NCBI GenBank assembly: GCA_964624665.1
Contig: CAZUZG010000002.1
Location: forward strand, 1-60,690
Length of the DNA stretch: 60,690 bases
DNA from: an uncultured Candidatus Saccharibacteria bacterium
GTDB lineage: Bacteria; Patescibacteriota; Minisyncoccia; Phycocordibacterales; UBA9973
Direction: 5' to 3'
This document shows, in pieces, positions 10,321 through 27,493 of this stretch. The position numbers and the translations under genes are program-made. Each line of letters opens with the position of its first letter. Position 1 is the stretch's first letter. The notes under the pieces are model-generated. The model ran no database searches. It was not told the origin of the DNA and saw nothing but the letters and a program-made list of their open reading frames with translations.

Positions 10321-10329
10321 AAATTTCAA

Positions 10330-10818
10330 ATGAATCAGGATAAAATAAGAGAATTAATAACTACATTTGTAGGCAATACCCCTTTCAGCATTGATGATAT
10401 TAAAGTTGAAAAAGAAAACAGCGATGTTTTTTGGTGCCTTATTAAAACCAAAGAACCGCATTTTTTCATAGGCCGAGGCGGTGAGAATCTTTCTGCGTTC
10501 AATCATCTGATCCAAAGAATAGCTGAGAAATTGATCGAAAAAGAGAATGGATTTGATCCAGAAACGGCTTTATTAAACAGGTCAAAAATCGTTGTTGATG
10601 TCAATGGCTACCAAAAGAATAAAATAGAAGAGTTAAAAAGCTTGGCCCACACCCTCTCAGAAAGAGCCTTGTTTTTCAAAAACACTATTGAAACCGAACC
10701 GATGTCATCCTATGATAGGAGAATTATTCATGAATTTCTTCTCGGCAAAAACAATATTCAGACAGAATCTGCCGGAGTTGAGCCATATCGCCGCGTTATC
10801 ATAAAATACACAGCTTAA
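10330..10818 (+). CDS. jag: Jag/KhpB-like R3H RNA-binding protein
   Basis: Located downstream of yidC. It has a KH-like segment (FIGRGGENLSAFNHL) and an R3H motif (YDRRIIHEFL). Confidence 0.8.
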   Translation: MNQDKIRELITTFVGNTPFSIDDIKVEKENSDVFWCLIKTKEPHFFIGRGGENLSAFNHLIQRIAEKLIEKENGFDPETALLNRSKIVVDVNGYQKNKIEELKSLAHTLSERALFFKNTIETEPMSSYDRRIIHEFLLGKNNIQTESAGVEPYRRVIIKYTA

Positions 10819-12080
10819 AGCTTGATAGTCCAAAGAGTGGAATCTTTTTTATTTGTGAAAAATAAGTAATCTTCTTTCGGACTCAGAAACATTTTTATGC
10901 CATCGATATTTTGGCCCGTTAAAGAGCTCGGATCAGCTATTAAATTTGAAGTGTTATTTTTGATATCTATTCTCCAAAGAGAATCATTAAAAGATTCTAC
11001 GCCTTGATACCAGTCGTCAGGATAGTCGCCTGTTTGGATAAATTGCGGCACGGCACAGTAAATATTCTCGCTATTTAGAGACCAAGTGCATTTTTCAGGC
11101 AGAGTTTGAAGTCCTAGGTCGATCGAGGTTTTCTGGGCCGTGTCAAAAATTTTAAGCCTTAAATCGTTTCCGCTATATAATACTATTTTGCCGCTAGGGC
11201 TCATGAGGGTCGTCAGGCCTGGAATGCCGCCGAGAATTTTACTGAAAGATTTGGTTTGAGGATCAAGGCCATACAAAAAGCCATTGTATCTGGCGGAGGC
11301 CTTGGTATTTAAGGTTATCAGTCTTGGGTTTTGCCAGCTGGTCAGCCATTCAGAAAAGGCTGATTGGAATATTTGGGTTCTGTTTTCGTCGCCGGCTGAT
11401 AAATTGATGCCAGTTACGCCATCGCCAGATTCGAAAAGATAAAAGAGGTTTTTGGCATCCGAGGAAACGCTCAAATCTGTGATGTTTTGGCTTAAAAAGG
11501 AGCCTTTAAGCTCGGTCGAGGCATCACCTCCAATAATCTCTTTGGCGATATGGCTTAAAAAGCTCTCGATTGTCATATTGTCGTTTTTCAGATAGCGCAA
11601 AATTACGCTATCGCCGCCGTTAAAAAACATCGCTTCCTCGATTTTCGGTATGGTCGTGCTGGAAATTCTTTTTTCCTTGATTTCATCGACAAAAGTCTCG
11701 TAGATATTTCCGGTTATCTTGTCGACATAGCGCACAGCCAGCGCTTGTTCCGCGCCATTTTCTTTAATTCTATCTTTTATTACCGCCACGCTGCCGGCGA
11801 TCGGCATTTGGCTGATTTGCGTTATTTTCTGCGCAGTTTTACCGGTAATAACTTGGATCGGAGTTATTGTCGCTGTTTCCGGCATTTTGTTCTCACCTAG
11901 CGCGGGTGTTTCGTTTTGGGCTGCAGGTTTTTTGCTGCCCAAGGGAATAAATTCCCTAATTGTCGGACCGACTTGATCTAAGCCCCCTTTTTTCATTGAG
12001 ACATAGAAAATAAAGCTGAAGGCTGAAATGATCAGAACTGAAGCAACGGTTATTAAAATGATAAATTTTTTATTTTGCAT
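10815..12080 (-). CDS. membrane-anchored hypothetical protein, last gene of the T4SS-like cluster
   Basis: N-terminal TM segment (FIILITVASVLIISAFSFIFYV) followed by about 390 aa of beta-rich sequence. Its stop codon overlaps the jag stop. Confidence 0.6.
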   Translation of the reverse strand: MQNKKFIILITVASVLIISAFSFIFYVSMKKGGLDQVGPTIREFIPLGSKKPAAQNETPALGENKMPETATITPIQVITGKTAQKITQISQMPIAGSVAVIKDRIKENGAEQALAVRYVDKITGNIYETFVDEIKEKRISSTTIPKIEEAMFFNGGDSVILRYLKNDNMTIESFLSHIAKEIIGGDASTELKGSFLSQNITDLSVSSDAKNLFYLFESGDGVTGINLSAGDENRTQIFQSAFSEWLTSWQNPRLITLNTKASARYNGFLYGLDPQTKSFSKILGGIPGLTTLMSPSGKIVLYSGNDLRLKIFDTAQKTSIDLGLQTLPEKCTWSLNSENIYCAVPQFIQTGDYPDDWYQGVESFNDSLWRIDIKNNTSNLIADPSSLTGQNIDGIKMFLSPKEDYLFFTNKKDSTLWTIKL

Positions 12081-12083
12081 AAA

Positions 12084-13763
12084 TTATTGAATGTGCCAAT
12101 GTTTACCCGACGTTGCAGGTGTTTGGTCGGGTGTTTCAGCTAAAAATCTTAAACCATTTTTTACATATACTTTGCCGTCGTTTGGGAATGCATTGCCAAT
12201 ATCAACTCCCGCTTTATTTTTTCCTCCGGTTATATATTTATTTAAAACAGGATCCTCTCTTGCATCAAAAACCCCGCTGCCTGGCACATGAGCCGTAGTG
12301 CTTGCATTGTGCAACCAGCATTCTGTTCCACCGCTTATTGTTATATGGTTTTTACATTGAGGACATTTGCTAAGCAGGCTTAATATTTTATCGGTCTTAA
12401 AGCCGTCAAGACTTGTACAGTGTTGGCTGCCGACCTTTTGACAGTTCGCAGCATTAACTGTTACCCCTTTTGTTGCCAGGTCGGCTCTAATCACCGCATC
12501 CTGAAGATTTAGAGCGTTAATATCTGGGGTCGGCCAATTTGCTCCATTTGTAAATTTTTTACAAACCAAACCGCCAATTGGAACTTGGGGCGTATCTTGA
12601 GCAGTGCTTTCCAGGGTGACAATAAGGGGGTCTGCTGGCGTGATTCCAATATTGAGGCTCAGCAAATCCGGATTGATTGTATTTAAAATAATCCAAGAAC
12701 CGAGAGCGAGGATTAGGCCCAAGATCGCATTTTTTATTCTTGATCTGCCGTCCTCTTTAGAATTTATGGCTTCAGCCGACATGTATTGTATGCCTCCTAT
12801 AACGATCATGACAACAGACAGGATGCCGGCTATGCCGATCAAGAGCTTGAAAACAACCTTGAGATAATCGGCGATTTTATTGGCCTTGGTATCAAAAATG
12901 GCTCCAAATCCAGGTATTGGGGCCAACAGTGTATATTTGCCGTCATATCCCGTTGTTTCAGCTGAGCCAACTCCGCTGATATTTTGGGCTTCTTCGGCCA
13001 CAAAGCTCATTTCGATACCCTTGTCGTCCCCTTCTGAATTTCTGGCCAGAGCATAAAATCTGTAGGTGTGTCCTTTAATTAAATTTTGAATTGGCGCGCT
13101 GAAATTCCCATCTGTTGTTACAGTGGCCTCCGAGGTCGAAACAATCTGAGGCGGTATGCCATAGTTTACCTGCTGAGCAGATACAGAATTCATATCATAA
13201 TATTCGAAATAAACCTTGGCTGAGACATCTTTTATTTCAACTTTTCCATTTAGTTTTGCCGAAGTTTCGGTAATGTCTGTGGGTGGCAGTGTCGTAACCT
13301 CTGGTTTTGTCGTATTCGGGTCATCTGCCGTGAAACTCCTCGCATTATTGATATCGTCGCAAGCTTGACCGAAAGAATTTTTGGCGCAAAAAACATATTT
13401 ATAGACATGGCCTTTTATTAGATTTGAAATCGGCGTCAAAACCAGGCCATTTGAAGTTCTTGTTGTTTTCTGTGTTTCGGTTGGAGAAAGCACCATGCTA
13501 AATGGATGAGGTATGTTGGTGTAGTCATAATATTTAAACCAGATTTCGGCCGAATTGTCATTCATGGTCACATTTCCCTGCAGGACAGCTGAAATATCAA
13601 GTATCTTGAAAGGGTTTAAATTTTTTACGACCGGTTTTGCGCCTGCTGGAGTAAACACGCTTTCATTTTGAACCAATTGCGCCGAGGAAATAGAAGGAAT
13701 TATTAAAATCAATAAAATAAAGATTTTAAGAAAATATTGAATTTTGTTTTTTTGAAAAATCAT
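12084..13763 (-). CDS. FN3-like x2 / T4SS-pilin-like / putative zinc peptidase fusion protein
   Basis: Signal peptide and two about 100-aa modules ending NLIKGHVYKY and NLIKGHTYRFYA. A double-TM segment LIGIAGILSVVMIVIGGIQYM...AILGLILALGSWIILNTINP resembles TrbC/VirB2-type pilins. The C-terminus carries SGGTE..H....TAHVPGSGVFD...HWH. Confidence 0.6.
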   Translation of the reverse strand: MIFQKNKIQYFLKIFILLILIIPSISSAQLVQNESVFTPAGAKPVVKNLNPFKILDISAVLQGNVTMNDNSAEIWFKYYDYTNIPHPFSMVLSPTETQKTTRTSNGLVLTPISNLIKGHVYKYVFCAKNSFGQACDDINNARSFTADDPNTTKPEVTTLPPTDITETSAKLNGKVEIKDVSAKVYFEYYDMNSVSAQQVNYGIPPQIVSTSEATVTTDGNFSAPIQNLIKGHTYRFYALARNSEGDDKGIEMSFVAEEAQNISGVGSAETTGYDGKYTLLAPIPGFGAIFDTKANKIADYLKVVFKLLIGIAGILSVVMIVIGGIQYMSAEAINSKEDGRSRIKNAILGLILALGSWIILNTINPDLLSLNIGITPADPLIVTLESTAQDTPQVPIGGLVCKKFTNGANWPTPDINALNLQDAVIRADLATKGVTVNAANCQKVGSQHCTSLDGFKTDKILSLLSKCPQCKNHITISGGTECWLHNASTTAHVPGSGVFDAREDPVLNKYITGGKNKAGVDIGNAFPNDGKVYVKNGLRFLAETPDQTPATSGKHWHIQ

Positions 13764-13765
13764 TT

Positions 13766-14761
13766 TTAAAAATTGATATTTAAATCGACTGAAGATTTTT
13801 GGAATAATTTTGACGCATTTTCTACAACTATGCCGATATTGGCGTTTCCGCCGCTATTTTTATCCAACGTTATTGATAGTTCGTTTATATTTGAAGTATT
13901 TGTCCTTTTTCCATTTATAGACCAATCATACTTTAAATTATTGATATTCTTGTTGTCTGCTGAAAAAAAGTAGGGTTCGGCGGCTATGGTTGTTGGTTCG
14001 TTCAAATCTAAAAAACTGCTCAGCGTATTTTCATGTTTTATGCCAAAGAAAGGATCTTTTTTGTAAAGAAGTATTTTTGGCTGGCCGGGCGTGATCGATA
14101 CATTCCCCTCGGCTGTATTGCCGGCGCTGAGAGAGGAAATAGCCACGCCGATATTGTCGACCGTATCCAAATAGCTGTTTTTATAAATAAATGAATTTTT
14201 GCCGAAACCAGAGGCGTTTTGGACCGGATCATAGCCTTTTTTCCATTTGAAAGAAAAATCATTTTCTTTCAATCTGACTCCATCGGCATTCTTGATGTTT
14301 GGAATGGCGACGACTTTTATCTTGCTCTCAGACACAGGCAGGGCTTTGCCACGGTAAAATCTCGGCACATAAGAATCGACAGCCTGCCAAAGCAGATCGA
14401 CTTCGCCCGGCTGGATAATGACCCTCTTGCTTAAAGCTGGCACACCGCCAAGGCTGACATCTACATCAACAGTCGACGGATTGCCGGTTTCGTTTGTGCG
14501 GAAAGAGAAATTTTTCTTGCCAACGCCTCTCAGCTCCAGTCGGCCGTCGAGCGTCCAAGAAATATCAGCCTTGTCCAAGTCGGATGAAAAGCTCGAAACT
14601 GAGACATTTACATTTTGGAGCGGTTTTGGAATTTTGGGGGTTATATCGATGGAGATGTCGGCCTTGCTTGATTGAGCTGACGCAAAAAATGGCGCGATTA
14701 AAAACATTAAAACAAAAATATTTATGTATAATGCTTTAATTTTAAAAAATTCTTTTGGCAT
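13766..14761 (-). CDS. secreted hypothetical protein (331 aa)
   Basis: Signal peptide LMFLIAPFFASA. Tightly packed in the cluster, with 2-nt and 4-nt gaps to its neighbours. Confidence 0.6.
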   Translation of the reverse strand: MPKEFFKIKALYINIFVLMFLIAPFFASAQSSKADISIDITPKIPKPLQNVNVSVSSFSSDLDKADISWTLDGRLELRGVGKKNFSFRTNETGNPSTVDVDVSLGGVPALSKRVIIQPGEVDLLWQAVDSYVPRFYRGKALPVSESKIKVVAIPNIKNADGVRLKENDFSFKWKKGYDPVQNASGFGKNSFIYKNSYLDTVDNIGVAISSLSAGNTAEGNVSITPGQPKILLYKKDPFFGIKHENTLSSFLDLNEPTTIAAEPYFFSADNKNINNLKYDWSINGKRTNTSNINELSITLDKNSGGNANIGIVVENASKLFQKSSVDLNINF

Positions 14762-14765
14762 TTTT

Positions 14766-15203
14766 CTAATTATTCAAGTTTTTCAACCTGTCCTCGAGGA
14801 TTTTTATTTTTTCCTCTATCATCTTTTTTGAATCTTCAAAGTTGGTGATTTCGCCTATTTGTTGGTCGATCTCTTTGTCCATTTCCTTTAATTCATTGAT
14901 TTTTTTAAGCTCGTTTTCAATCTTGTCTTTTAGGTCTTTCAATTCAGTCAGCTCTTTTTTGATTTTATCCTCTCTTTCATTAATGTCTTCACTAACCTCT
15001 TTTTTGACCTGTTCCAGCATTTTCAGCTTATCGCCCAAATCATCCTTGGAAGAAATTTCCCTTTTGTATTTTTCTTCAAGCTGTTTTATTTCTTCCGCCA
15101 GGTCAGGTTTCGGAGCGCCGGACACCGGAGTTTGAGCTGGATTTGCTTTCGGCAAATCCAAATCTATGTCAGTTGAAGTATTTTTTTGTTCGTTGTCTGG
15201 CAT
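14766..15203 (-). CDS. acidic/lysine-rich coiled-coil protein (145 aa)
   Basis: Heptad-like K/E-rich sequence throughout. Lies immediately downstream of virB4. Confidence 0.55.
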   Translation of the reverse strand: MPDNEQKNTSTDIDLDLPKANPAQTPVSGAPKPDLAEEIKQLEEKYKREISSKDDLGDKLKMLEQVKKEVSEDINEREDKIKKELTELKDLKDKIENELKKINELKEMDKEIDQQIGEITNFEDSKKMIEEKIKILEDRLKNLNN

Positions 15204-15248
15204 GGCCTAATTATAGCATTAAGGCCGGCCAATTAGAAATTAAACCTT

Positions 15249-17351
15249 TTATTCAATGGTTTTTTTGATTTGGTCTTCCAGGGAAGAGATTTCCTTTTCA
15301 AACATATCCAATTCTTCCAAGCTCAAGGAACCCTCAAGTATTTTTCTGGTTTTTTCCTCTTTCGTTGAAGCAATTTCCGGTTTTTCGCCTTTGGCCACGC
15401 CTGGTTCCAGTATGGTCTGGTCGATTTTCGGCCGGATTTCGATTTTTTGCTCCACTTCTGTTCTTCTTAAAAATTCTCTTTCCGCCTCTTCGGCTTTGGC
15501 CAAGAGCGTTTTTGTTTCGGTTTTGGGAATTTCTTCTGCTTGAGTTATGGTTAATTTGGCTTTTTGGGCATTTAAGATTTGCGCTGGATCGGAGGTGATG
15601 ATTTGGTCTTCGGTATAGGAGGCGATGATTTTAATCGCCACATGCTTTAAGCCGGCAAAAAATATGCCCTCGCCGATATTTGATTCCAAAAGGAGATATT
15701 TCTCTTCATCAGTCAGGTTGAATGTTTTTTGCAAGGTATCTATCGTGCTCGGTGATTGTTTTAGGAGGAGTTGAATGGAAGAGTTGGTGACGATCGGCAC
15801 GCCGTACGGAGATTTCATGAAGTCGCCGACATCTTGAGTGATGGTGCAAAGGCCGAGATAATATTTTCGGCCGCGCTTGGCGATAGAATAAAGAAATGAA
15901 GCGGTATCTTCGGATTTCATCATCCACCAGGCCTCATCGACAACCAGCAATCTTTTCTTGATATCTTTTCTAACGGCATTCCAAATGAAGTGCGTGACGA
16001 TATACATGGCGACCGGCTTCAATTCATCTTCCATGTCGCGCACGGAGAAAACCACGAATTTTTTATTGATATCGACATTGGAAGGCCGATTGATGAATCC
16101 GGCCCAAGTGCCCTTGGTGTATTTGGATAATTTCTGGACGATAGAATCGCTGCCTTCCATGCCGGAAAGAACCATTTCAAAATCAGAAAGGAGCGGCGGT
16201 TCGATATTTGAAAAATCGGAGTTTGGAGTTATGTCTTTCAAGGCATAGGTTTCTGAAATTGCCCGGTCGACGATCGCATCCTCTTCCGGGGTCAGGCCGC
16301 CCAGCATCAGCCTGAAAAGGCCGACCAGATTGATGATATTTGATCTCAAGACATCGGCAGCCGTTTCGTCTTCTCTGGGTATTGGCAGGTCAAACGGATT
16401 GATGTGATGCTGGGAAGAAAGCGAGATGTTGAAATATCGTCCGCCAACCGATTCGGCCAAGTATTCATATTCTTTTTCCGGATCGATCACGATAACGCTT
16501 GTATCGAACATCAGCGTTCTTAGAATTTCCAGCTTGGTCGCATATGATTTGCCGGCGCCAGATTTGGCAAAAATAATGGAATTATAGTTTTCCAGCGAGA
16601 AGCGGTCGAAAATCACCAAGCTGGAATTATGCCGATTGACGCCATATAAAATGCCTTTTTCAGAAGTCAGGTCGAAAGAAATAAATGGAAAGATGCTTGA
16701 AAGCGGTTCAGAGTTTAGTTTCTGATGAACATTGAGCAGATCATTGCCGAGCGGGATCGTGCTTTTAAAGCCATCTTCCTGCTGAAACAGGGCCGGTTTT
16801 ATATAGACCAATTTAGACTCCAAAATCGATCTGATTTCAGTTTCTATTTTATAAAGCTCATTTTCATTTTCAGCGTAGATGGTGATGTAAAGACCGACTT
16901 CAAAAAGCTTTTCCTGGGCTTGCTGGAGATCATCACGCAATGATTCAAGATCGCGATAAGCGGTGTCGAGTATCGGATCTCTGACCAAGCCTCTTTCCTC
17001 CCTGGCATTGATCTGGCTTTGGACCTCGGCAACTTTTTTTTGAAAGGCCTTTAAAACTTTCACTGTATTGACCGGGTGGATAAAAATCGAGACATCAAAT
17101 ATTTTATCCAGATTGATGATCGGCGAGAACCAATTGTCCGTCAAAAAACGCGGATAGGAGATTATGAAAAAGCTTCGGACTATTTTTTCTCCCAGATTTA
17201 ATGATTTGGATTCGATCTTGAGGGCCGACGGAGCGATGATGTCCTGCAGTTCCAGTGTGGCGGCCTGATAGATTTCTTCAGGCAGGATCGGCAAAACCGA
17301 CTTCTCCTCAGCTGTCTTTTTTTTGCCGAAAATTTTGTCAAAAATTGCCAT
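15249..17351 (-). CDS. virB4: VirB4/TraC-family type IV secretion ATPase
   Basis: Walker A FAKSGAGKSYATK and Walker B LLVVDEAWWMM, plus a GLCTITQ sensor-like motif. Start is set at MAIFDK (ATG 17351), 1 nt after the upstream gene's stop. Confidence 0.9.
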   Translation of the reverse strand: MAIFDKIFGKKKTAEEKSVLPILPEEIYQAATLELQDIIAPSALKIESKSLNLGEKIVRSFFIISYPRFLTDNWFSPIINLDKIFDVSIFIHPVNTVKVLKAFQKKVAEVQSQINAREERGLVRDPILDTAYRDLESLRDDLQQAQEKLFEVGLYITIYAENENELYKIETEIRSILESKLVYIKPALFQQEDGFKSTIPLGNDLLNVHQKLNSEPLSSIFPFISFDLTSEKGILYGVNRHNSSLVIFDRFSLENYNSIIFAKSGAGKSYATKLEILRTLMFDTSVIVIDPEKEYEYLAESVGGRYFNISLSSQHHINPFDLPIPREDETAADVLRSNIINLVGLFRLMLGGLTPEEDAIVDRAISETYALKDITPNSDFSNIEPPLLSDFEMVLSGMEGSDSIVQKLSKYTKGTWAGFINRPSNVDINKKFVVFSVRDMEDELKPVAMYIVTHFIWNAVRKDIKKRLLVVDEAWWMMKSEDTASFLYSIAKRGRKYYLGLCTITQDVGDFMKSPYGVPIVTNSSIQLLLKQSPSTIDTLQKTFNLTDEEKYLLLESNIGEGIFFAGLKHVAIKIIASYTEDQIITSDPAQILNAQKAKLTITQAEEIPKTETKTLLAKAEEAEREFLRRTEVEQKIEIRPKIDQTILEPGVAKGEKPEIASTKEEKTRKILEGSLSLEELDMFEKEISSLEDQIKKTIE

Positions 17352-17352
17352 A

Positions 17353-17997: not shown

Positions 17998-18038
17998 AAT
18001 TTGATTATATAATATATGACTGCTAATTTCTAATCGCC

Positions 18039-18446: not shown

Positions 18447-18451
18447 GATTT

Positions 18452-19087: not shown

Positions 19088-19103
19088 TTTATTTTAAGAT
19101 TTA

Positions 19104-22100: not shown

Positions 22101-22187
22101 CGCTTTTTTTGTACCACCAAAACCGATCGGCAAAAAAGCCGACAAGACAATAACTGCCAATAAAATATAAGGTAGAATCTTCCTCAT
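19104..22187 (-). CDS. giant VirB6/TrbL-like polytopic membrane protein with FN3-like head and low-complexity tail
   Basis: Signal peptide at MRKILPYILLAVIVL and an FN3-like module (...KLYYARAQY). A long multi-TM block spans about aa 210-560. It is followed by a G/P-rich linker and a K/E-rich coiled-coil tail ending KPKEDKPKEDKDKKNN. The longer ORF start would run through a terminator hairpin. Confidence 0.65.
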   Translation of the reverse strand: MRKILPYILLAVIVLSAFLPIGFGGTKKAEAAVALRITASNVVSNYASFGMIVNANVAEITNGNFGLAVYDSYNPSNNNFGSPYTTVTPIQLQQTAGQQTLGVVLSKQLTANKLYYARAQYTDASLVTTYSNVISFKFGDPNSVNANFQNSDTAIIPTATGVGGGIIDQLQNAPEQNKANEDILPSCGLISSGSSIYGCVIQVVYYLFWVPTSWLAGLAAKFLDFFVFYSIQSSSYSGSTFVTQGWGVVRDLSNIAFIFVLIFAAIKTILDLGGSDKLIKNVIIIALLINFSLFFTKAIVDAGNILAGVLYNDIGVTILNQNGGVVESEKGETQVSSALVAKFNPQNIIASAGVTNENVNEDSIKTPYLVVIILATIINLVMIYVFCSVAFLFVGRVVGLMLAMIFSPFAFISRALPDGDKALKDWGWSNWWGNLTSLTALAPIFIFLLWLIIKFLDTGLLTGIGDKLKLEGNTFGNFVNVILPFALIMFMLIEAKSIAQTYAGKIGNTINQYAGAVAGFVGGAAIGGAALVGRSTLGRLGASLATSRGGEGGPTGTGGDEGITRPPIQPLSPVTPGRVPFKPIPRRPIAGPLTLERPEREDLGPAVLFQRPGVDTVPSVRNTAGTILRMQEERRRRKEEEELKARAERSGIQIAGRNAPIPAGPAPIFPTAPTGAIRQAPAQSPETETFTSPESKIYTTAPIQPKQQTIKVETQPTQKQTEALTGEKKPEETKTADQTLAGDIAAKSAIEKTREEEKAKAEEKKASETRSLKDMAAAAPKTVFGIRSVEDVKNTLGKKGLDIAKYLGSSSFDLRDSKWFNYMMKKASWDLGKASGKGGYEAKQKEILKNEEEFAKSLVASGKELETLNQLKLDLAKMTNDEQLADIKKRKKELKQLKIDLAEEKNEEKIAKIKEKIEKQTFNKDEEKIFDFSKTVDEEDKRIKDLNKTRQTAYAERIEKGTFFSYKPTDLESANKIRGLSKSKSEKDKMYEAAKKLFEEEKPKNEKPEEDKPKEDKPKEDKDKKNN

Positions 22188-22250
22188 TGTATTTCTAAGT
22201 ATAACAAGTAAATTGTGAAAACTTAAGTTAATATTTGCCTTTTTGTGGAC

Positions 22251-22286
22251 AAAAAAATCCCGCAAAATATTTTGCGGGATTTTTTG
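22251..22286. terminator. hairpin terminator inside the T4SS-like cluster
   Basis: aaaaaaatcccgcaaaata/tattttgcgggattttttg is a perfect stem with A/T runs on both sides, located between the FN3 protein gene and the virB6-like gene. Confidence 0.65.
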
Positions 22287-23660
22287 CTATCTGAATCTAT
22301 AATAGTATTCGTAGTCATGTGGCGGAGTTTTTAAGATCGGTTTGATCTGTCGGCTTTCTATCAATACGCCGAGCAAGTATTCATTTACGATAATGCTGCC
22401 GTTTGATTGCATTTTAAGCTCATAAGCTGCAACATCCGGATAAGAAACGCGGACTTCTTTGCCCATATTGTCGACATAGCCCAAGATTCCAGCCAAGAAA
22501 TGGGCCGTGTCGGCAGAAAATAGATTCATGTCCATGCCGGTTTGATAGCCGTACAATCTAGCTAGGCTTGGAATGCCGATGATCTGTCTTTGAAAAACAT
22601 GTTCGACGCCTTCATGGTAGCGGACGACAATGTCGATACCATTATTGGTAACATTGACCGAACCATTCGGCCCATTTGAAATGATCAAGCCGGTTTCCGG
22701 GCCGTATGTGCCGCCCACTGTTCCCGGTCCGGTAATGCCGGATCCTGTGGGTGAAACAATTCCGCCACCCGTATTTGTAGTTGTGCCTCCTCCGGTGGTA
22801 TCGATTGGTCCTGTACCCGGAGAATTGGTCGGCGGGCAAGGATTGCTAGGGGTTGGCGGTATAACCGGTCCGCCATAGCCTGGATCATAGGTGATCGGCG
22901 TGCCGGGCGGACAGTCAGCGCTCGAAGTTTGGCCCAAAGTCGTGAAGCTAAAAATCGATCCTCTAAGCTTCTGGCTGCCCAATTTAGCCCAGGCTCTGTA
23001 GTAGTAAGTTTTGCCAGGCGTTAGATTGGTGATTTTTTTTGCAACCTCATCGTATTTATTGGCCTGCATTTGAATATTGACTGTCAGTGTTCCGACACCC
23101 TGGACCACTTTTGTGTAATCATCGCTATATTCAAAATAAATGGCTCCGCCGGAGCTGGTTGCATTATTGTATGCGGCTTTCAGATTGGCCCATGTATTGT
23201 TCACATTAAAGGCATATTCTGTCGCGATTGTTGTTTGGCCGCAAGTTTGGCAAGGCTTGGTCACAAAACTGCCGACTGTATTATTCAAGTAGGTTATCAA
23301 TTTTTTGTCCGATACGATTGCGCAGTAGTAATATTTTGTATCTGGTTCGAGGCCGGCGATGTCTTGGCTAAAGGCATGAGTGCTGCCATTGCCTGTGCCG
23401 AGAACAATGTCCTTGGTCGATATCATGTTTGAGCCGTAAATATCCTTGCAGAAAACCGGCGCCGGATATTGCTTGGCATATCGGAAATAAGCGATATTTT
23501 TCAGGCCTTCATTGCCCAGGACTGCCACGCCGGAGAGTGTTGCGCTGTTCTCGGTAATATTGCTTGCCGGATAAAGGCTGACAGATGAAGGCGAGGCGAA
23601 ACCCGCGATCGGCAGTGTGGCTGAAATTAAAATAAAAATTTTTAAGATATTTTTTTGCAT
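22287..23660 (-). CDS. secreted protein with two FN3-like modules, P/G/T-rich linker and C-terminal domain
   Basis: Signal peptide MQKNILKIFILISATLPIAGFA. The modules end DTKYYYCAIV and TPGKTYYYRAWA, and the linker is PPTPSNPCPPTNSPGTGPIDTTGGGTTTNTGGG. Confidence 0.65.
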   Translation of the reverse strand: MQKNILKIFILISATLPIAGFASPSSVSLYPASNITENSATLSGVAVLGNEGLKNIAYFRYAKQYPAPVFCKDIYGSNMISTKDIVLGTGNGSTHAFSQDIAGLEPDTKYYYCAIVSDKKLITYLNNTVGSFVTKPCQTCGQTTIATEYAFNVNNTWANLKAAYNNATSSGGAIYFEYSDDYTKVVQGVGTLTVNIQMQANKYDEVAKKITNLTPGKTYYYRAWAKLGSQKLRGSIFSFTTLGQTSSADCPPGTPITYDPGYGGPVIPPTPSNPCPPTNSPGTGPIDTTGGGTTTNTGGGIVSPTGSGITGPGTVGGTYGPETGLIISNGPNGSVNVTNNGIDIVVRYHEGVEHVFQRQIIGIPSLARLYGYQTGMDMNLFSADTAHFLAGILGYVDNMGKEVRVSYPDVAAYELKMQSNGSIIVNEYLLGVLIESRQIKPILKTPPHDYEYYYRFR

Positions 23661-23664
23661 ATGT

Positions 23665-26136
23665 TTAATAAATGCCAAGCGCCTTTTCCCAATTATTGCC
23701 GTTGCCTCCACCTCCTGAATCTTTAAGTTTTAATATTGTATTTATCGGAATAGTTTCCAGAGCCCAAGTGCTGTTCCGCCATGCAATAAAATCCAAAAAT
23801 CCAGTATTGGTTCCGCCGGGCGCTTTGGTTTCATCGCTGCCAGTATATCCGGGAACATAACCAACTCTATTTGGGTAGCTATATAAAATAGGTTTAAGAT
23901 ATTTAGGCCTTATTTGATTATATTGTTGCCAAAGCAGGCTTTGCATCCGGTTTTCCAGGTCTTTTTCGCAGCCATCCGGTCCTTGTAATAAAACATCATA
24001 GATGTAATTTTTCTTGTCTCGGGCCTGCTTGTAGAGATTGTCCATGTTGGCCACATCGTCTCCGGTCGAGAAATTCGCTGATAATCTGGCAAACTGGGTG
24101 ACGATCGGCGAACTAGGATCAAAACTATTATCGTAGTCGGCCGCCGCCGGGTCGAGCGCGTCAATTTTTGATTTCAGTGTTTGCAATCTTTGAATGACGC
24201 TCTTTCTGAAAGCAATATCATCCTTATTGTTTTGGATGATTTTTTCATAACCTGGAATTTTTTTAAATTCCACTGACGCTTCTTCTGCTACTCCGGGCAG
24301 TACTTGAAAATTGTAATATTTATTCATCAATTTGGCGTGTTCATTGAAAACAAAAGTCAGCAGGTCCGCAAAGCTTTGTTTTGAACAAAGGGCGGCATTT
24401 TTATCATCGTTTATGTCAAAGGCGTCAAAGCCAGTCATGCTGTAAAAAATATTTTTATAAAATTTTGAACCCTTTTTAGCTCCATCGTCACCGCAAGCAG
24501 ATTCCGCCTCAGCCACATCATAACCGAAGTTTAGAGCTATACCGATCGCCCCGGTCTTTTCTGATAATTGCATTAAAGAACCCAAAAAAGTATCGCTAAA
24601 GCCCGTGAAACTTGCCGGAAATGTTTGGATTATCAAATCCAAATTTCTTCTGGCGTCATTTTCCCAGCCAGGGTGCGGACCCGGGATGCAGTAATCCAGC
24701 TGATAGATATTTTTTATCAGATTTTCCAGCTCAGAATTGTATTGATCTATTTTATCTAAATAAGTTCTTTGTTCATCGATGAAGGCTTGAGTCAGATCGG
24801 TTTTTAAATTGAAATCCATATGGGAAGCAAGCCAAGAGCTTGGATTTGAAAAGCTTTGGAACTGCACGCTTTGTGTCGGTCCAAAAATCGAAGGATCGTT
24901 CAGGTCGGTGATTTGGGTATTGTCGGGGCCGCTCAGCCCCTTCAGTCCTTTTGTTGTTAAATCGGAAATAAATTTATTTAAAGCCGCATCGCCGATCGCC
25001 GCCAAGGCCGAATTGATATCGTCAGCCACCTCCAAGCTTCTTTCGGAAGAATTAGCAGAATAGGTTAATTTGTCGGCGATCAGTTTGCCCGGGGTGACAT
25101 ATTCCCATCTATTGCAAAGCCGAGCGCCAGGTTCGCCGCGAAGTGCCGCGCTGTTTTCAGCGTGAGTGACTCCTTCCGGATCGGCGCAGCGTTCGTCGCC
25201 TAAGAAGCCGCCGGCATCGCGGATAGAGTCTTTAATCTGGGTCGCCCTAGAATCAAATGTGCCTTGCAGATTAACCGATAAGGCATTGGAAGCCATCAAG
25301 CTGAAGCCGATCGGATTGTTTTGCGGATATTGAGTCATGCCGAGCCAGGCATTCCAGCCGCCGATATTGAAATTGGTATAAAAATCGGCCGAGACCGATC
25401 CAGGGTTAGTCCTTTGAATGAAATTATTTAAAGAATATTGGGCGTTGGTTGCAAATTTATTTCTAAAACCGCCGATGAAGTTTTGCATGAAATTCTTGCC
25501 GAATGGAAATAAATTCGGATCATTGATGCTATTGCCGAAAGCCAAGATCTCGTCTTGAGCGATATTCTTAAAGAAAGAGCCGGGATCTTCCAAAAAGAAA
25601 GGCTTGCCTTCGTAGCCGGTATTGATCCAATCTATGATTCCCATGGTAATTTTTTGAATGAAGTTTTTGATGATGATTTTTGCGAGGCTGTCCAAGCAGC
25701 CGCCTTTTTTGCTGAGATAGCCTGTTGCTTTTTTTACATCAGTAGTTTTTTCATTGATAGCATCAATTTTTCTATTAAGAGATGTGCTGTATACAGGCAC
25801 AGAGAGTTCATTGCTTGTTTCATCAAGCGCTATGCCATCAAGATTGCCATTTCCTCCAGTATTTCCGGAACCTGTTTCAGTTCCAAAGAGTTCTTTAATT
25901 CCATCGCCGAGCAGCTTGCCACAGCTTTTTGTTTTCCAGTCTTCGGCGGCCGAATTAGATGTGTTTATCGTATCAGATGATGGAATATCTATCGATTCAG
26001 CTGTCGCGCCAAAGCTTGTAGTGTCGGCGATGTTTTCAGCATTTGCTTTACGAACTGGCCAAAGCAAAAAAGACGGAGCGATCAAACCCAGGATTAAAAT
26101 AGGCAAAATCAGATTTTGGGAATTTTTTCTATTCAT
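23665..26136 (-). CDS. large secreted hypothetical protein (about 823 aa)
   Basis: ATG at 26136 (MNRKNSQNLILPILILGLIAPSFLLWPVRKANA signal peptide). No recognised domain. Confidence 0.65.
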   Translation of the reverse strand: MNRKNSQNLILPILILGLIAPSFLLWPVRKANAENIADTTSFGATAESIDIPSSDTINTSNSAAEDWKTKSCGKLLGDGIKELFGTETGSGNTGGNGNLDGIALDETSNELSVPVYSTSLNRKIDAINEKTTDVKKATGYLSKKGGCLDSLAKIIIKNFIQKITMGIIDWINTGYEGKPFFLEDPGSFFKNIAQDEILAFGNSINDPNLFPFGKNFMQNFIGGFRNKFATNAQYSLNNFIQRTNPGSVSADFYTNFNIGGWNAWLGMTQYPQNNPIGFSLMASNALSVNLQGTFDSRATQIKDSIRDAGGFLGDERCADPEGVTHAENSAALRGEPGARLCNRWEYVTPGKLIADKLTYSANSSERSLEVADDINSALAAIGDAALNKFISDLTTKGLKGLSGPDNTQITDLNDPSIFGPTQSVQFQSFSNPSSWLASHMDFNLKTDLTQAFIDEQRTYLDKIDQYNSELENLIKNIYQLDYCIPGPHPGWENDARRNLDLIIQTFPASFTGFSDTFLGSLMQLSEKTGAIGIALNFGYDVAEAESACGDDGAKKGSKFYKNIFYSMTGFDAFDINDDKNAALCSKQSFADLLTFVFNEHAKLMNKYYNFQVLPGVAEEASVEFKKIPGYEKIIQNNKDDIAFRKSVIQRLQTLKSKIDALDPAAADYDNSFDPSSPIVTQFARLSANFSTGDDVANMDNLYKQARDKKNYIYDVLLQGPDGCEKDLENRMQSLLWQQYNQIRPKYLKPILYSYPNRVGYVPGYTGSDETKAPGGTNTGFLDFIAWRNSTWALETIPINTILKLKDSGGGGNGNNWEKALGIY

Positions 26137-26169
26137 TCGAAGCAAACTGACGACAAAATAATCAAAAAA

Positions 26170-27081
26170 TTACCTTTCTATTATACCATTATTGATCAAA
26201 TATGTCCTTAATTCTTCGGAAGCATTGATGAATTCTTCGCTGTATCTTTGATATTGGGAAAAGCCGACGAGAACAGTCAGCGGATCATCGGTGATTTTTG
26301 AGAATTTGACGATCGATTCACCTGTATTATAAGCGCTATTTGCTATATCCAAGTGTTTTTGAATCAGATTTTCCGGCACTTTTAATCCCTGGACCTCTTT
26401 TGAAAAATCTTTATAGGCTTCAGATATTTTTATAAGCTTTTCCGGATCTGTTTCGCCGCTGATCGGGTCGACAAAGCTTAATTCATCGCCAAGACCCTGT
26501 TCTTTGTATTTTATAAACGCTTTTTTGGCTTCGTTGTAATATTTTGCTTGCGTTTCTCTGTCTGAGCTATCCGCTTTATTAATCTCTTCTAAAACATAAA
26601 TGTCTCCAAGCGTTACGCTGGTAATTTTTTCTCCAAGCAGACTTGAAACATTGCTGATCGCGTCTTTGTTTAAATTGCCGGATTGCTTTAGGGCATTGAT
26701 GGTTGTAAATAATTCGCGGGAGAATTTTTCGGTTTCATTCAATTCTTCATCTGACTTGATTGCTGTATCAGCATTTTCGATCTTCAGCTCTTCTTTTTTT
26801 TGCTTGACCCAGTCGGCATCAGATACGCCTTCATGAGTGTATCTATTTTTGGGATCCAGGCCCCACAAAGATTCTTCCCAGTCGGCAATGCCGTCATTGT
26901 CGGTATCTTTTTCCGACAACTCTTTAATGCTCATGTTTTGGGCTAAAATTTCGGCCGATCTTTTGCTTGATGATTCTTTATTTTTTTTAATGAAATAGCT
27001 GGCAAGCAAAACAACGATAAAAACGCCGATGGCGCTTCCGGCAATAATCATGAATTTTTTGCTTGGCAGATAATTTTTCAT
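26170..27081 (-). CDS. membrane-anchored protein with thrombospondin type-3-like Ca-binding motif
   Basis: TM segment FMIIAGSAIGVFIVVLLASYFI. The motif DTDNDGIADWEESLWGLDP matches the D.D.DG..D TSP3 pattern. Confidence 0.6.
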   Translation of the reverse strand: MKNYLPSKKFMIIAGSAIGVFIVVLLASYFIKKNKESSSKRSAEILAQNMSIKELSEKDTDNDGIADWEESLWGLDPKNRYTHEGVSDADWVKQKKEELKIENADTAIKSDEELNETEKFSRELFTTINALKQSGNLNKDAISNVSSLLGEKITSVTLGDIYVLEEINKADSSDRETQAKYYNEAKKAFIKYKEQGLGDELSFVDPISGETDPEKLIKISEAYKDFSKEVQGLKVPENLIQKHLDIANSAYNTGESIVKFSKITDDPLTVLVGFSQYQRYSEEFINASEELRTYLINNGIIER

Positions 27082-27486
27082 TTATTTAGAAGTTCCATAC
27101 ATGGTTATAGGAGTAAGTTCGACTATTTCTGTCGCCCCTGTTGCCACTTCTGTGCAAGTTATAATTGCTGGCGTCGGATTATAAGTGCCGAGGATCCATT
27201 GGCCGACCCTTGCCGCATTTTTTGTTTTGGAAATAATGCCCGTCGGGATCAAGTAACTGGTCGGCGCTTTATTGATTGGCCTGATGGTAATAGATGTTCC
27301 AGGCACAAGACATTCAAAGCTGGCTGCTTCCAGCGCTTCTATCTCGACTGCTTTGGTGTTCAAAACTTTTCCGCCGAAGGGCATTTTTGCCGCCCGAGTT
27401 AAGTTTTGAGCCCTGGCAATACTTAGAGAACCCATGGAAAAAATAAAAAAACCAAAAATAATTAGAAAAATAAAACCTCTTTTCAT
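27082..27486 (-). CDS. small secreted protein (134 aa), first gene of the T4SS-like cluster
   Basis: Signal peptide FIFLIIFGFFIFSMGSLSIARA. Its start codon lies 7 nt downstream of the rsmA stop. Confidence 0.55.
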   Translation of the reverse strand: MKRGFIFLIIFGFFIFSMGSLSIARAQNLTRAAKMPFGGKVLNTKAVEIEALEAASFECLVPGTSITIRPINKAPTSYLIPTGIISKTKNAARVGQWILGTYNPTPAIITCTEVATGATEIVELTPITMYGTSK

Positions 27487-27493
27487 GCCCGCA

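What the first reader, a model, noticed from the sequence alone, without database searches (positions are those of the whole stretch)
10815..27486. 13-gene VirB4 / PrgI / VirB6-like / pilin-like cluster with no relaxase or coupling protein, joined to the pcrA-rsmA housekeeping operon
Seen in the sequence: thirteen minus-strand ORFs are packed with gaps of 0-45 nt, except for one hairpin-containing gap of about 100 nt at 22188-22286. The first ORF starts 7 nt after rsmA, and the last shares its stop with jag. The recognisable parts are as follows.
- VirB4 ATPase (15249-17351), with Walker A GAGKSY and Walker B LLVVDEAWWMM.
- A PrgI/VirB3-like protein (18039-18446).
- A 1027-aa polytopic VirB6/TrbL-like protein (19104-22187).
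- A protein with a TrbC/VirB2-like double-TM pilin segment (12084-13763).
The remaining eight or nine proteins (134 to about 823 aa) all carry signal peptides or TM anchors, or are coiled coils, and I recognise no family for them. Established knowledge: minimal monoderm conjugative T4SSs need VirB4, VirB3-, VirB6- and VirB8-like proteins, a hydrolase and a VirD4-type coupling ATPase, plus a relaxase for DNA transfer. Absent here: any second ATPase (VirD4/TcpA/VirB11), relaxase, integrase, or flanking tRNA or repeats. Inference: this is a chromosomal, non-conjugative envelope machine, possibly for host attachment, protein delivery or DNA/nucleotide uptake in an episymbiotic CPR cell. Most of its components are undescribed.
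Basis: partly seen in the sequence, partly recalled or inferred. Interest (0 to 1): 0.75.

Follow-up and report, generated by a model that had tools for sequence, protein, structure and literature searches.

The report
Chromosomal type IV secretion cluster of Patescibacteria
This is the origin-proximal, relaxase-free type IV secretion gene cluster already described for ultrasmall Patescibacteria (CPR) bacteria; the one feature here that I did not find in the literature searched is that its only pilin is fused to swappable cell-wall-cutting enzyme modules.

Summary
There are 13 tightly packed minus-strand ORFs at 10815-27486, lying between rsmA/pcrA and jag/yidC/rnpA/rpmH/dnaA/dnaN.

- **Family calls.** VirB4, PrgI/VirB3 and a VirB2-type pilin domain pass curated HMM cut-offs. 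The VirB6 call fails every HMM threshold, but the AlphaFold model of its membrane core has R388 TrwI/VirB6 as its five best PDB matches.
- **Context.** No relaxase, coupling ATPase or att repeats occur in the 60-kb window, which is otherwise housekeeping. The gene order is conserved next to dnaA in about 80 Paceibacteria species genomes, so this is not an ICE.
- **Prior work.** It matches the Patescibacteria-clade T4SS of Wang et al. 2023 (essential for epibiotic growth) and Quinonero-Coronel et al. 2025 (MPF-FATA-derived, relaxase-free, near dnaA/ksgA).
- **Details added here.**
  - VirB4 is split: a separate TrsD-like protein carries its N-domain.
  - The only pilin gene encodes a 559-aa multidomain protein.
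  - The pilin's C-terminal slot holds NlpC/P60, VanY, YkuD, M15 or SLT domains in orthologues. Here it holds an uncharacterised Cys/His domain with no fold match.
  - A strong terminator splits the cluster.
- **Orphans.** Five conserved proteins stay unannotated.

The parts
27082..27486 (-). g1: 134-aa secreted protein (signal peptide). Accessory; starts 7 nt after rsmA.
   Evidence: ORF and translation; hydropathy. Homologue found in only 5 of 80 loci. No Pfam hit.
26170..27081 (-). g2: 303-aa N-terminally membrane-anchored protein with a DTDNDG (TSP3-like) motif. Conserved orphan.
   Evidence: TM at aa 10-28. Present in 26 of the 29 loci that reach rsmA. No Pfam, NCBIfam or PDB match.
23665..26136 (-). 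g3: 823-aa N-terminally anchored or secreted protein. Conserved orphan; the conserved core is about aa 125-420.
   Evidence: Found in 44 loci. No Pfam, NCBIfam or PDB match.
22287..23660 (-). g4: 457-aa secreted protein with two Fn3-like (purple-acid-phosphatase-N-like) repeats. It occupies a variable cassette slot.
   Evidence: Pur_ac_phosph_N 2.1e-6, below the cut-off. Weak similarity to the g12 repeats (BLAST 0.002-0.007). Homologue in 12 loci; the slot is empty or holds other genes elsewhere.
22252..22285 (-). Intrinsic-terminator-like hairpin: 15-bp stem with an A-run upstream and a U-run downstream, between g4 and g5.
   Evidence: Sequence. RNA fold dG -21.4 kcal/mol, z -5.88. Comparable hairpins occur upstream of g5 in only some relatives.
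19104..22187 (-). g5: 1027-aa 'extended VirB6-like' polytopic membrane protein. It has a variable N-terminal ectodomain, a conserved core of about 6-7 TM helices (aa ~190-540) and a charged, low-complexity C-terminal half.
   Evidence: Hydropathy and conservation map. No TrbL/VirB6 HMM hit in it or in 54 orthologues. Remote homologue P0020 hits TrbL at 2.2e-4, below the cut-off. The AF2 core model has pLDDT 79.5, and its top 5 PDB hits are all TrwI/VirB6 of R388 (prob 0.85-0.99, E 0.02-0.1, TM 0.24-0.41).
18452..19087 (-). g6: 211-aa soluble (cytoplasmic) conserved orphan with an invariant C-terminal D-P-Y-R motif.
   Evidence: No TM segment. Found in 55 loci. Alignment A9. No Pfam, NCBIfam or PDB match.
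18039..18446 (-). g7: PrgI/VirB3-like small membrane protein.
   Evidence: Pfam PrgI 4.5e-9, 37.2 bits against a cut-off of 27. Found in 74 loci.
17353..17997 (-). g8: 214-aa TrsD-like protein, i.e. the detached N-terminal domain of VirB4.
   Evidence: NCBIfam: VirB4_plasma positions 105-233 (2.7e-10), TrsD (1.4e-7) and CD1110 positions 2-102 (1.3e-4), all below cut-off. VirB4 itself covers CD1110 positions 182-733 only. 62% median identity across 79 loci.
15249..17351 (-). g9: VirB4 ATPase with Walker A GAGKSY and Walker B VVDEAW; the C-terminal tail is charged.
   Evidence: conju_CD1110 2.2e-110, 370 bits against 325. P-loop_TraG 6.5e-25 and AAA_10. 76-84% identity to 80 Patescibacteria loci.
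14766..15203 (-). g10: 145-aa K/E-rich coiled-coil ORF. Lineage-specific, and possibly not a real component.
   Evidence: Only weak coiled-coil Pfam hits. No homologue in 80 loci, where virB4 abuts g11.
13766..14761 (-). g11: 331-aa secreted or anchored conserved orphan.
   Evidence: Signal/TM at aa 10-28. Found in 77 of 80 loci over its full length. Only a weak PKD_3 hit. No PDB match.
12084..13763 (-). g12: the only pilin-domain protein. Layout: signal peptide, two tandem Fn3-like repeats (aa ~40-262), VirB2-type two-TM pilin core (aa ~275-375), then a C-terminal Cys/His-rich 'HWH' domain (aa 376-559; window 12087-12638).
   Evidence: T4SS_pilin above cut-off; Mbov_0395 pilin-like 2e-6. Repeats match each other at 8e-20. 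It is the single pilin ORF in the window and in 69 of 73 sources (the window plus related loci) with a hit. C-domain invariants are C66 C74 E106 W108 H110 D125 H180 H182, with H117 nearly invariant; 151 homologues, most of the 120 listed annotated as pilin fusions. AF2 pLDDT 79.8, no fold match. Orthologues carry NlpC/P60, VanY, YkuD, M15_4 or SLT in this slot.
10815..12080 (-). g13: 421-aa membrane-anchored conserved orphan. Its C-terminal part shows PD40/TolB-like repeat motifs by eye. Some orthologues add a peptidoglycan-binding domain.
   Evidence: TM at aa 6-24. Found in 68 loci. PG_binding_1 is present in L042, L046, L056 and L061 orthologues. No Pfam, NCBIfam or PDB match for the window protein.

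Best explanation
This is the chromosomal, origin-proximal 'Patescibacteria-clade' type IV secretion system, in its Paceibacteria/Nomurabacteria form. It is a vertically inherited derivative of the monoderm (MPF-FATA) conjugation machinery that no longer serves conjugation.

Shown here:
- A cytoplasmic-membrane engine made of VirB4 (g9), a detached TrsD-like VirB4 N-domain (g8), PrgI/VirB3 (g7) and an extended VirB6-like polytopic protein (g5).
- A single VirB2-type pilin-domain protein (g12).
- Five conserved envelope or cytoplasmic orphans (g2, g3, g6, g11, g13).

Inferred mechanism:
- VirB4/TrsD, docked on PrgI and VirB6, power assembly of a wall-spanning conduit or short pilus built from, or anchored by, the pilin core of g12.
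- Both extra parts of g12 face outward: the N-terminal Fn3-like repeats and the C-terminal enzyme-like module. They would mediate contact and local peptidoglycan remodelling, taking the VirB1 role.
- The apparatus mediates contact-dependent exchange with the host cell on which the episymbiont lives. Protein or other macromolecule translocation is most likely; cargo and direction are unknown.
For: - **Component calls above curated cut-offs.** VirB4, PrgI and T4SS_pilin.
- **Split VirB4.** The TrsD-like g8 covers the N-terminal CD1110 and VirB4_plasma profile positions that g9 lacks.
- **VirB6.** The five best PDB fold matches of the g5 core are all TrwI/VirB6. A remote homologue gives a sub-threshold TrbL hit.
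- **Vertical inheritance.** The same gene order between rsmA and jag/yidC/rnpA | dnaA/dnaN occurs in nearly all of 80 species-level genomes.
- **No mobility genes.** There is no relaxase, T4CP, att repeat or adjacent tRNA.
- **Strong constraint.** VirB4 has 81% median identity against DnaA 71%, DnaN 60% and PcrA 57% in the same loci. Caveat: the loci were ranked by VirB4 similarity.
- **Hydrolase role of the pilin C-terminus.** 32 Pfam matches to peptidoglycan-enzyme families (NlpC/P60, VanY, YkuD, M15_4, SLT, SLT_2) fall in that slot among 72 syntenic orthologues. g13 orthologues carry PG_binding_1.
- **Literature.** The homologous Saccharibacteria cluster is essential for epibiotic growth and lacks relaxase and T4CP (PMC10633639). 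Its core order, VirB6-x-x-PrgI-(gene at the TrsD position)-VirB4, is close to the order here. The clade is relaxase-free and lies near dnaA/ksgA/rnpA/rpmH (PMC12102498).
Against: - Function is inferred entirely from homology and context. No Paceibacteria T4SS has been tested.
- The VirB6 call fails all HMM thresholds, and the Foldseek E-values (0.02-0.1) and TM-scores (0.24-0.41) are weak.
- No VirB8-like protein was recognised.
- The window's own pilin C-domain has no detectable relation to any hydrolase.
- A 559-aa pilin may be unable to polymerise like VirB2.
- A T4CP or relaxase could be encoded elsewhere in the genome.
- g10 may not be a real gene.
Confidence: 0.72

Rival explanations
1. 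It is an ordinary integrative conjugative element (or a decayed one) whose T4SS exports DNA.
For: The VirB4, PrgI and TrsD families come from Firmicutes and Mycoplasma conjugative elements. A tyrosine recombinase lies at 35291-36262. PcrA, which from my own recollection (not checked) is needed for ICEBs1 transfer, sits directly upstream.
Against: The chromosomal position and gene order are identical in about 80 species. No relaxase, T4CP, att repeats or adjacent tRNA were found. GC content is not distinct from the flanks. The recombinase is embedded among rpsO, NYN and nusA housekeeping genes. PMC12102498 found relaxases in only 103 of 3,035 Patescibacteria genomes.
Confidence: 0.03
2. It is a DNA-uptake machine, analogous to Helicobacter ComB or archaeal Ced, that imports host DNA as a source of nucleotides or genes.
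For: Known relaxase- and T4CP-free T4SSs include DNA importers. There is a weak partial CedB hit (1.7e-9, 37 bits against a cut-off of 700). ComM-like and PcrA helicase genes lie nearby. These organisms cannot make nucleotides (PMC10633639).
Against: In S. epibionticum, competence depends on T4P/ComEC and a comEC deletion is viable, while the T4SS is essential (review PMC12857230). The CedB score is far below its cut-off. No DNA-binding component was recognised in the cluster.
Confidence: 0.12
3. It is only an adhesion or pilus-assembly device, used for attachment to the host with no substrate translocation.
For: The outward-facing parts are variable adhesin-like modules: Fn3-like, TIG, CBM_10 and Big_1 in g12 orthologues, plus g4 and the g5 N-terminus. 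No effector or T4CP was recognised.
Against: Type IV pili already provide attachment in the studied Patescibacteria (PMC10633639; PMC11623550 abstract). Conservation is highest for the ATPase and channel parts. The peptidoglycan-enzyme modules point to wall penetration rather than mere binding.
Confidence: 0.1

Closest known systems
Patescibacteria-clade T4SS (Ca. Southlakia epibionticum SEML1_0006-0019, Wang et al. 2023, PMC10633639; survey by Quinonero-Coronel et al. 2025, PMC12102498)
   Same: Both are chromosomal and lack a relaxase or T4CP in the cluster. Both have VirB4, a gene at the TrsD position, PrgI, a ~1000-aa VirB6-like protein and PF18895 pilins. The core order in Se, VirB6-x-x-PrgI-(SEML1_0009)-VirB4, is close to the order here. 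The location near dnaA, ksgA, rnpA and rpmH matches.
   Different: Se has an array of six small pilins, a separate lysozyme/peptidase and an NTF2 (VirB8-like) protein. This cluster has one large multidomain pilin with a fused C-terminal module, no recognisable VirB8-like protein, and a different set of orphans (g2, g3, g6, g11, g13).
MPF-FATA conjugative T4SSs of Firmicutes (pCF10 Prg/Pcf, pGO1 Trs, C. difficile CTn CD1110 type)
   Same: VirB4 scores above the CD1110-family cut-off, and PrgI and TrsD-like proteins are present. The architecture is monoderm, with no VirB7, VirB9 or VirB10.
   Different: There is no relaxase, T4CP (PcfC/TcpA), PrgK-type hydrolase, VirB8-like PrgL or adhesin PrgB. 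A VirB2-type pilin is present, which Gram-positive systems lack. The cluster is fixed in the chromosome.
Mycoplasma ICE conjugation genes (Mbov_0395 pilin-like, Mbov_0396, Mbov_0397 VirB4)
   Same: There are sub-threshold hits of g12 to Mbov_0395 (2e-6), of VirB4 to VirB4_plasma (1.4e-77) and of g8 to its N-terminal part.
   Different: All scores are below the equivalog cut-offs. The Mycoplasma genes belong to mobile ICEs with a DDE recombinase, and those cells have no wall and hence no hydrolase modules.
R388 Trw / Agrobacterium VirB T4SS (TrwI/VirB6 stalk, VirB2 pilus, VirB1 transglycosylase)
   Same: The g5 core gives its best fold matches to TrwI/VirB6. The pilin core has the two-helix VirB2/TrbC topology; 6 orthologues also hit TrbC. 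A peptidoglycan enzyme is associated with the system.
   Different: There is no outer-membrane core complex and no VirB5, VirB8, VirB11 or VirD4. The hydrolase is fused to the pilin instead of being a separate VirB1.
T4CP-less T4SSs (Bordetella Ptl, Brucella VirB, Helicobacter ComB, archaeal Ced)
   Same: They work without a relaxase, and without a coupling protein in the locus.
   Different: Those are diderm or archaeal systems with unrelated accessory sets. No cargo is known here.

Membership tests
Patescibacteria-clade T4SS (PMC12102498) | VirB4 ATPase of the MPF-FATA-related type with intact Walker motifs | tested here: met
   conju_CD1110 2.2e-110, 370 bits against a cut-off of 325. P-loop_TraG 6.5e-25. 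Motifs are visible in the translation.
Patescibacteria-clade T4SS (PMC12102498) | VirB4 falls inside the monophyletic Patescibacteria clade | not tested
   No phylogeny was built. Indirect support only: 76-84% identity to 80 Patescibacteria MAG VirB4 genes, with 582 relatives confirmed.
Patescibacteria-clade T4SS (PMC12102498) | PrgI/VirB3-like and TrsD-like genes adjacent to virB4 | tested here: met
   PrgI is above cut-off. TrsD 1.4e-7 and VirB4-N-domain hits are sub-threshold but occupy the expected position. Both are conserved in 74-79 of 80 loci.
Patescibacteria-clade T4SS (PMC12102498) | VirB2-like pilin (PF18895) near virB4 | tested here: met
   30.4 bits against 26.6. 62 of 72 orthologues hit PF18895.
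Patescibacteria-clade T4SS (PMC12102498) | VirB6-like polytopic protein | tested here: inconclusive
   No Pfam or NCBIfam hit for g5, no Pfam hit in 54 orthologues, and no PDB sequence hit. Homologue P0020 hits TrbL at 2.2e-4, below the cut-off. The top 5 Foldseek hits are TrwI/VirB6 but with E 0.02-0.1.
Patescibacteria-clade T4SS (PMC12102498) | Chromosomal, near dnaA/dnaN/ksgA/rnpA/rpmH, with no relaxase nearby | tested here: met
   Flanking genes were identified. Synteny holds in 80 loci. No relaxase or T4CP family appears in any scanned ORF of the window.
Patescibacteria-clade T4SS (PMC12102498) | Required for epibiotic growth | not testable with these tools
   Known only for S. epibionticum by Tn-seq (PMC10633639).
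Conjugative T4SS / ICE | MOB relaxase and VirD4/TcpA coupling ATPase | tested here: not met
   None among the ORFs of the 60-kb window scanned against Pfam. The rest of the genome was not available.
Conjugative T4SS / ICE | Integrase with attachment repeats or a tRNA at the borders, and variable genomic position | tested here: not met
   No flanking direct repeats. The nearest tRNAs are at 46-47 kb. The position is fixed across 80 genomes. The Xer-type recombinase is 7.8 kb away among housekeeping genes.
Conjugative T4SS / ICE | VirB8-like (NTF2-fold) bitopic protein | tested here: inconclusive
   No sequence-level hit for any orphan against Pfam, NCBIfam or PDB profiles.
LAS zinc metallopeptidases (M15/M23/VanY-like), for the g12 C-terminal domain | H-x(3-7)-D and H-x-H (or E-x-x-H) zinc-site motifs on the Hedgehog/DD-peptidase fold | tested here: inconclusive
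   Motifs are present: D125, H180-W-H182, E106 and H110 invariant and H117 nearly invariant in 83 sequences. However, there is no Pfam hit, no PDB sequence hit and no Foldseek match in PDB or BFVD for a pLDDT 79.8 model. hhalign against the VanY module gives E 0.058; the control VanY versus M15_4 gives only E 0.002.

The most novel reading that the evidence does not exclude
In Paceibacteria the T4SS has merged VirB2 and VirB1 into one modular surface protein. It consists of a two-helix pilin core flanked by a fast-swapping N-terminal adhesin module and a fast-swapping C-terminal peptidoglycan-cutting module. The C-terminal options include a previously undescribed Cys/His 'HWH' enzyme family with no known fold relatives. 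The module swapping among close relatives would reflect adaptation to the cell wall of different host bacteria. On this reading the machine is a host-wall-breaching pilus or needle through which the episymbiont taps its host.
Probability: 0.25. Interest if true: 0.72.

Novelty: new member of a known kind. Interest (0 to 1): 0.38.

Why it matters
Patescibacteria make up a large share of bacterial diversity and live attached to other microbes. Their T4SS is the first shown to be essential for the bacterium carrying it, yet its cargo and mechanism are unknown.

This window adds nothing to the fact that the system exists. It does give a clean, complete Paceibacteria-type example and a parts list:
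- a split VirB4;
- an extended VirB6-like protein;
- five syntenic orphans;
- a single pilin fused to interchangeable cell-wall enzymes.

The pilin-enzyme fusion gives a concrete, testable handle on how the machine crosses a wall, whether its own or the host's. It also defines a candidate new peptidoglycan-enzyme family with 151 detected members.

Tried and rejected
- **Ordinary ICE.** Rejected by synteny, the absence of mobility genes and the absence of att repeats.
- **VirB6 by sequence.** Pfam and NCBIfam on g5, Pfam on 54 orthologues, and PDB profile searches with two alignments gave nothing except low-complexity hits.
- **g8 as a VirB4 N-domain by hhalign against the g9 alignment.** No signal, as expected once NCBIfam showed that g9 lacks that region. 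phmmer of g8 against PDB gave nothing.
- **g12 C-domain as an LAS peptidase.**
  - PDB profile search gave only a spurious talin hit.
  - Foldseek against PDB and BFVD found nothing.
  - hhalign against the VanY, M15_4, NlpC/P60 and YkuD modules was not significant.
  - The first hhalign attempt was confounded by the shared pilin tail.
- **Homologue search for the C-domain.** The single-sequence search found nothing; the profile search worked.
- **Orphans g2, g3, g6, g11, g13.** PDB profile searches and a pooled Pfam scan of 74 sequences (the seven window orphans and their orthologues) gave no family, apart from PG_binding_1 in some g13 orthologues.
- **Paralogy among cluster proteins by hhalign.** Only weak similarity between the g4 and g12 Fn3-like repeats.
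- **Rfam.** Nothing but 4 tRNAs.
- **First all-against-all hhalign script.** Timed out.

Full report
**1. Observation**

The ORF map shows 13 consecutive minus-strand ORFs between 27486 and 10815, at exactly the coordinates given.
- Intergenic gaps are 0-45 nt, except for 22188-22286.
- That gap contains a perfect 15-bp hairpin flanked by an A-run and a U-run (22252-22285). Its dG is -21.4 kcal/mol, z -5.9, and none of 200 shuffles folds as well. It looks like a strong intrinsic terminator.
- The first ORF starts 7 nt after the stop of a ribosomal RNA adenine dimethylase (RsmA/KsgA, 6.8e-59). RsmA directly follows a UvrD/PcrA helicase.
- The last ORF overlaps by 4 nt the end of a convergent Jag-like gene with R3H/KH domains.

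**2. Recognisable parts**
- **VirB4 (15249-17351).** It scores 370 bits on the NCBIfam CD1110-family VirB4 model against a cut-off of 325 (2.2e-110). It also hits Pfam P-loop_TraG and AAA_10.
- **PrgI (18039-18446).** Above the Pfam cut-off.
- **Pilin (12084-13763).** The 559-aa protein contains a T4SS_pilin (PF18895) domain at aa 297-363, above cut-off. It also gives a sub-threshold hit to the Mycoplasma ICE pilin-like family.
- **Split VirB4.** The window's VirB4 aligns only to positions 182-733 of the 752-position CD1110 model. The upstream 214-aa ORF (17353-17997) aligns to positions 2-102 of that model, to positions 105-233 of the Mycoplasma VirB4 model (2.7e-10) and to TrsD (1.4e-7). VirB4 is therefore split, with its N-domain encoded as a separate TrsD-like protein.
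- **VirB6 call (19104-22187).**
  - It is not supported by any HMM, in this protein or in 54 orthologues.
  - The protein does have a conserved core of about 6-7 TM helices (aa ~190-540) between variable hydrophilic ends.
  - A remote homologue reaches TrbL at 2.2e-4.
  - An AlphaFold model of the core (pLDDT 79.5) has TrwI/VirB6 chains of the R388 T4SS as its five best PDB matches (prob 0.85-0.99). E-values (0.02-0.1) and TM-scores (0.24-0.41) are weak.
  - I treat the VirB6 call as probable but below formal thresholds.

**3. Context**

The rest of the window is housekeeping or matches no family.
- Left of the cluster: TyrRS-type synthetase, PBP1, DnaN, DnaA, rpmH, RnpA, YidC and Jag.
- Right of the cluster: RsmA, PcrA, an M23+LysM peptidase, a ComM-like ATPase, DksA-like, NYN and S15 genes, a Xer-type recombinase, NusA, pyrophosphatase, trigger factor, ClpP, RNase Y, the CCA enzyme, Exo III, TIM and PGK.
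- No relaxase, VirD4/TcpA or VirB11 family was hit.
- No direct repeats bracket the block.
- The only tRNAs are at 46-47 kb.
- GC content is unremarkable.

**4. Conservation**

A scan of one genome per GTDB species found 582 relatives of this VirB4. The best 80 (76-84% identity) are all Patescibacteria MAGs labelled Nomurabacteria, Paceibacteria, Kaiserbacteria, Wolfebacteria, Zambryskibacteria and so on.

tblastn of the window's proteins against these loci shows the same order almost everywhere:

pcrA - rsmA - (g1) - g2 - g3 - (g4) - g5 - g6 - prgI - trsD-like - virB4 - g11 - pilin - g13 | jag - yidC - rnpA | dnaA - dnaN

| Protein | Median identity |
|---|---|
| VirB4 | 81% |
| TrsD-like g8 | 62% |
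| PrgI | 49% |
| Pilin core | 43% |
| g13 | 40% |
| g5 core | 37% |
| g11 | 35% |
| g2, g3, g6 | 28-29% |
| DnaA (same loci) | 71% |
| DnaN (same loci) | 60% |
| PcrA (same loci) | 57% |
| RsmA (same loci) | 55% |

The loci were ranked by VirB4 similarity, which inflates the VirB4 figure somewhat.
- g1 and g4 are sporadic.
- The g4 position is a variable cassette.
- The coiled-coil ORF g10 has no counterpart anywhere.
- A terminator-like hairpin in front of g5 is seen in some relatives but not all.

This is a vertically inherited chromosomal locus next to the replication origin, not a mobile element.

**5. What is already known**

The literature tools show that this system is published.
- Wang et al. 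2023 (PMC10633639) found an 'apparent T4SS' in the saccharibacterium S. epibionticum. It is essential for epibiotic growth, resembles Gram-positive conjugative systems, carries essential pilins and lacks relaxase and coupling proteins.
- Their structure-based table lists a ~1090-aa VirB6-like protein, an NTF2-like protein, PrgI, a 293-aa unannotated protein at the TrsD position, VirB4 and a lysozyme. The core order is close to the one here.
- Quinonero-Coronel et al. 2025 (PMC12102498) surveyed 3,035 genomes.
  - A monophyletic Patescibacteria VirB4 clade sits within MPF-FATA.
  - TrsD was the most abundant companion, with PrgI, some VirB6 and VirB2-like pilins also near virB4.
  - Almost no relaxases were found, and T4CPs usually lie far from virB4.
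  - In Paceibacteria the cluster lies close to dnaA, dnaN, ksgA, rnpA and rpmH.
- A 2025 review calls these systems 'the most exciting newcomers' (PMC12857230).

**6. What this analysis adds**

(a) The split-VirB4 reading of g8/g9 (section 2).

(b) The pilin.
- A family-specific HMM finds only one pilin-domain ORF in the whole window, and only one in 69 of the 73 sources (the window plus related loci) with a hit. Saccharimonadia, by contrast, have arrays of small pilins.
- It is always large: 64 of 70 orthologues have a 120-270 aa extension after the second TM helix, plus variable N-terminal extensions.
- With a cleaved signal peptide and a basic inter-helix loop, both extensions should face outward. 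This is inferred from the VirB2 topology.
- Pfam scans of the 72 syntenic orthologues identify the C-terminal extension as follows:

| C-terminal module | Orthologues |
|---|---|
| NlpC/P60 | 11 |
| VanY | 9 |
| YkuD | 5 |
| Peptidase_M15_4 | 3 |
| SLT | 2 |
| SLT_2 | 2 |

- All ten examples inspected individually were above the gathering cut-off for their enzyme domain. N-terminal modules include TIG, Fn3-like, CBM_10 and Big_1.
- The window's own C-terminal domain (aa 376-559) belongs to a sixth type, shared with 11 of the loci and 151 database proteins. Most of the 120 listed are ~280-340 aa and annotated with the pilin domain.
- This domain has invariant C66, C74, E106, W108, H110, D125 and H180-W-H182, and nearly invariant H117. 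Its AlphaFold model is confident (pLDDT 79.8).
- It has no sequence or fold relative in Pfam, NCBIfam, PDB or BFVD.
- Its H-x7-D...H-x-H motif order recalls LAS zinc peptidases, but profile comparison with the VanY and M15_4 modules is not significant.
- By positional equivalence I infer a peptidoglycan-acting enzyme of an undescribed family. This is inference, not demonstration.
- I found no mention of pilin-hydrolase fusions in the searched literature. PMC12102498 treats VirB1 and VirB2 separately.

(c) Some g13 orthologues carry a PG_binding_1 domain, which places that orphan in the wall.

(d) The orphans g2, g3, g6, g11 and g13 resist all sequence-based annotation. No VirB8-like protein was recognised.

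**7. Mechanism**

Shown:
- A conserved VirB4/TrsD/PrgI/VirB6-like membrane module.
- One pilin-core protein with outward enzyme and adhesin modules.
- No DNA-processing genes in the window.

Inferred:
- VirB4 energises assembly of a wall-spanning conduit or short pilus.
- The pilin-borne enzyme opens peptidoglycan.
- The machine mediates contact-dependent exchange with the host cell, as the essentiality data in Saccharibacteria suggest.

Cargo and direction are unknown. Rivals are a DNA importer (about 0.12), an adhesion-only device (about 0.10) and an ICE (about 0.03).

**8. Verdict**

This is a new member of a known kind. The pilin-hydrolase module swapping and the unassigned 'HWH' domain are the parts worth following up.

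Noticed in passing
window 12087-12638 (g12 aa 376-559); loci L002, L007, L016, L017, L027, L044, L047, L050, L058, L071, L074: A Cys/His-rich 'HWH' domain is fused to the pilin C-terminus. It has 151 database homologues and a confident AF2 model, but no Pfam, PDB or BFVD relative. It sits in the slot where syntenic orthologues carry NlpC/P60, VanY, YkuD, M15_4 or SLT domains.
   Followed up: yes
window 17304-17330 and 17539-17565: A 27-nt direct repeat (81% identical) encodes the identical peptide FGKKKTAEEK in both the VirB4 N-terminus and the linker of the TrsD-like protein. A looser (I/L)F-x-x-LF(G/S)KK motif recurs at both positions in relatives. It may be a shared docking motif or a trace of the gene split.
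   Followed up: partly
window 30549-31535 (+): A LysM x2 + Peptidase_M23 protein is divergently transcribed from pcrA, just outside the cluster. The same gene lies next to pcrA in the few related loci that reach that far (L068, L073, L079), and a homologue also occurs in L070. It could act as a VirB1-type hydrolase for the system or be an ordinary cell-division peptidase.
   Followed up: partly
It is flanked by rpsO, NYN and nusA, so it is probably the housekeeping XerC/D rather than an element integrase.
   Followed up: partly
window 50696-54963 (+): A block of five secreted or anchored proteins with no Pfam match, in the highest-GC part of the window (0.50). It includes a 655-aa protein with a long Gly-rich C-terminus. 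Two tandem paralogues (54041-54466 and 54457-54963) share an almost identical ~50-aa N-terminus.
   Followed up: no
window 7601-10818 versus 10815-30301: dnaA/dnaN (minus strand) and rpmH-rnpA-yidC-jag (plus strand) diverge from a 95-nt spacer, as at a typical oriC. If the origin is there, the whole 19.5-kb T4SS-rsmA-pcrA block is transcribed head-on to the rightward replication fork. GC skew in the window is too weak to settle this.
   Followed up: no
loci L001-L080 versus window: VirB4 (median 81% identity) is more conserved than DnaA (71%), DnaN (60%), PcrA (57%) or RsmA (55%) in the same genomes. The loci were selected by VirB4 similarity, so part of the difference is selection bias.
   Followed up: partly
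loci L042, L046, L056, L061 (g13 orthologues): Some orthologues of the orphan g13 carry an N-terminal PG_binding_1 domain that the window's g13 lacks.
   Followed up: partly
window 22287-23660 slot; loci L023, L035, L041, L046, L047, L051-L053, L056, L057, L069: The position between g3 and g5 is a variable cassette. It holds a g4 homologue in 12 loci, unrelated inserts of 0.8-2.2 kb in about a dozen, and nothing in the rest.
   Followed up: partly
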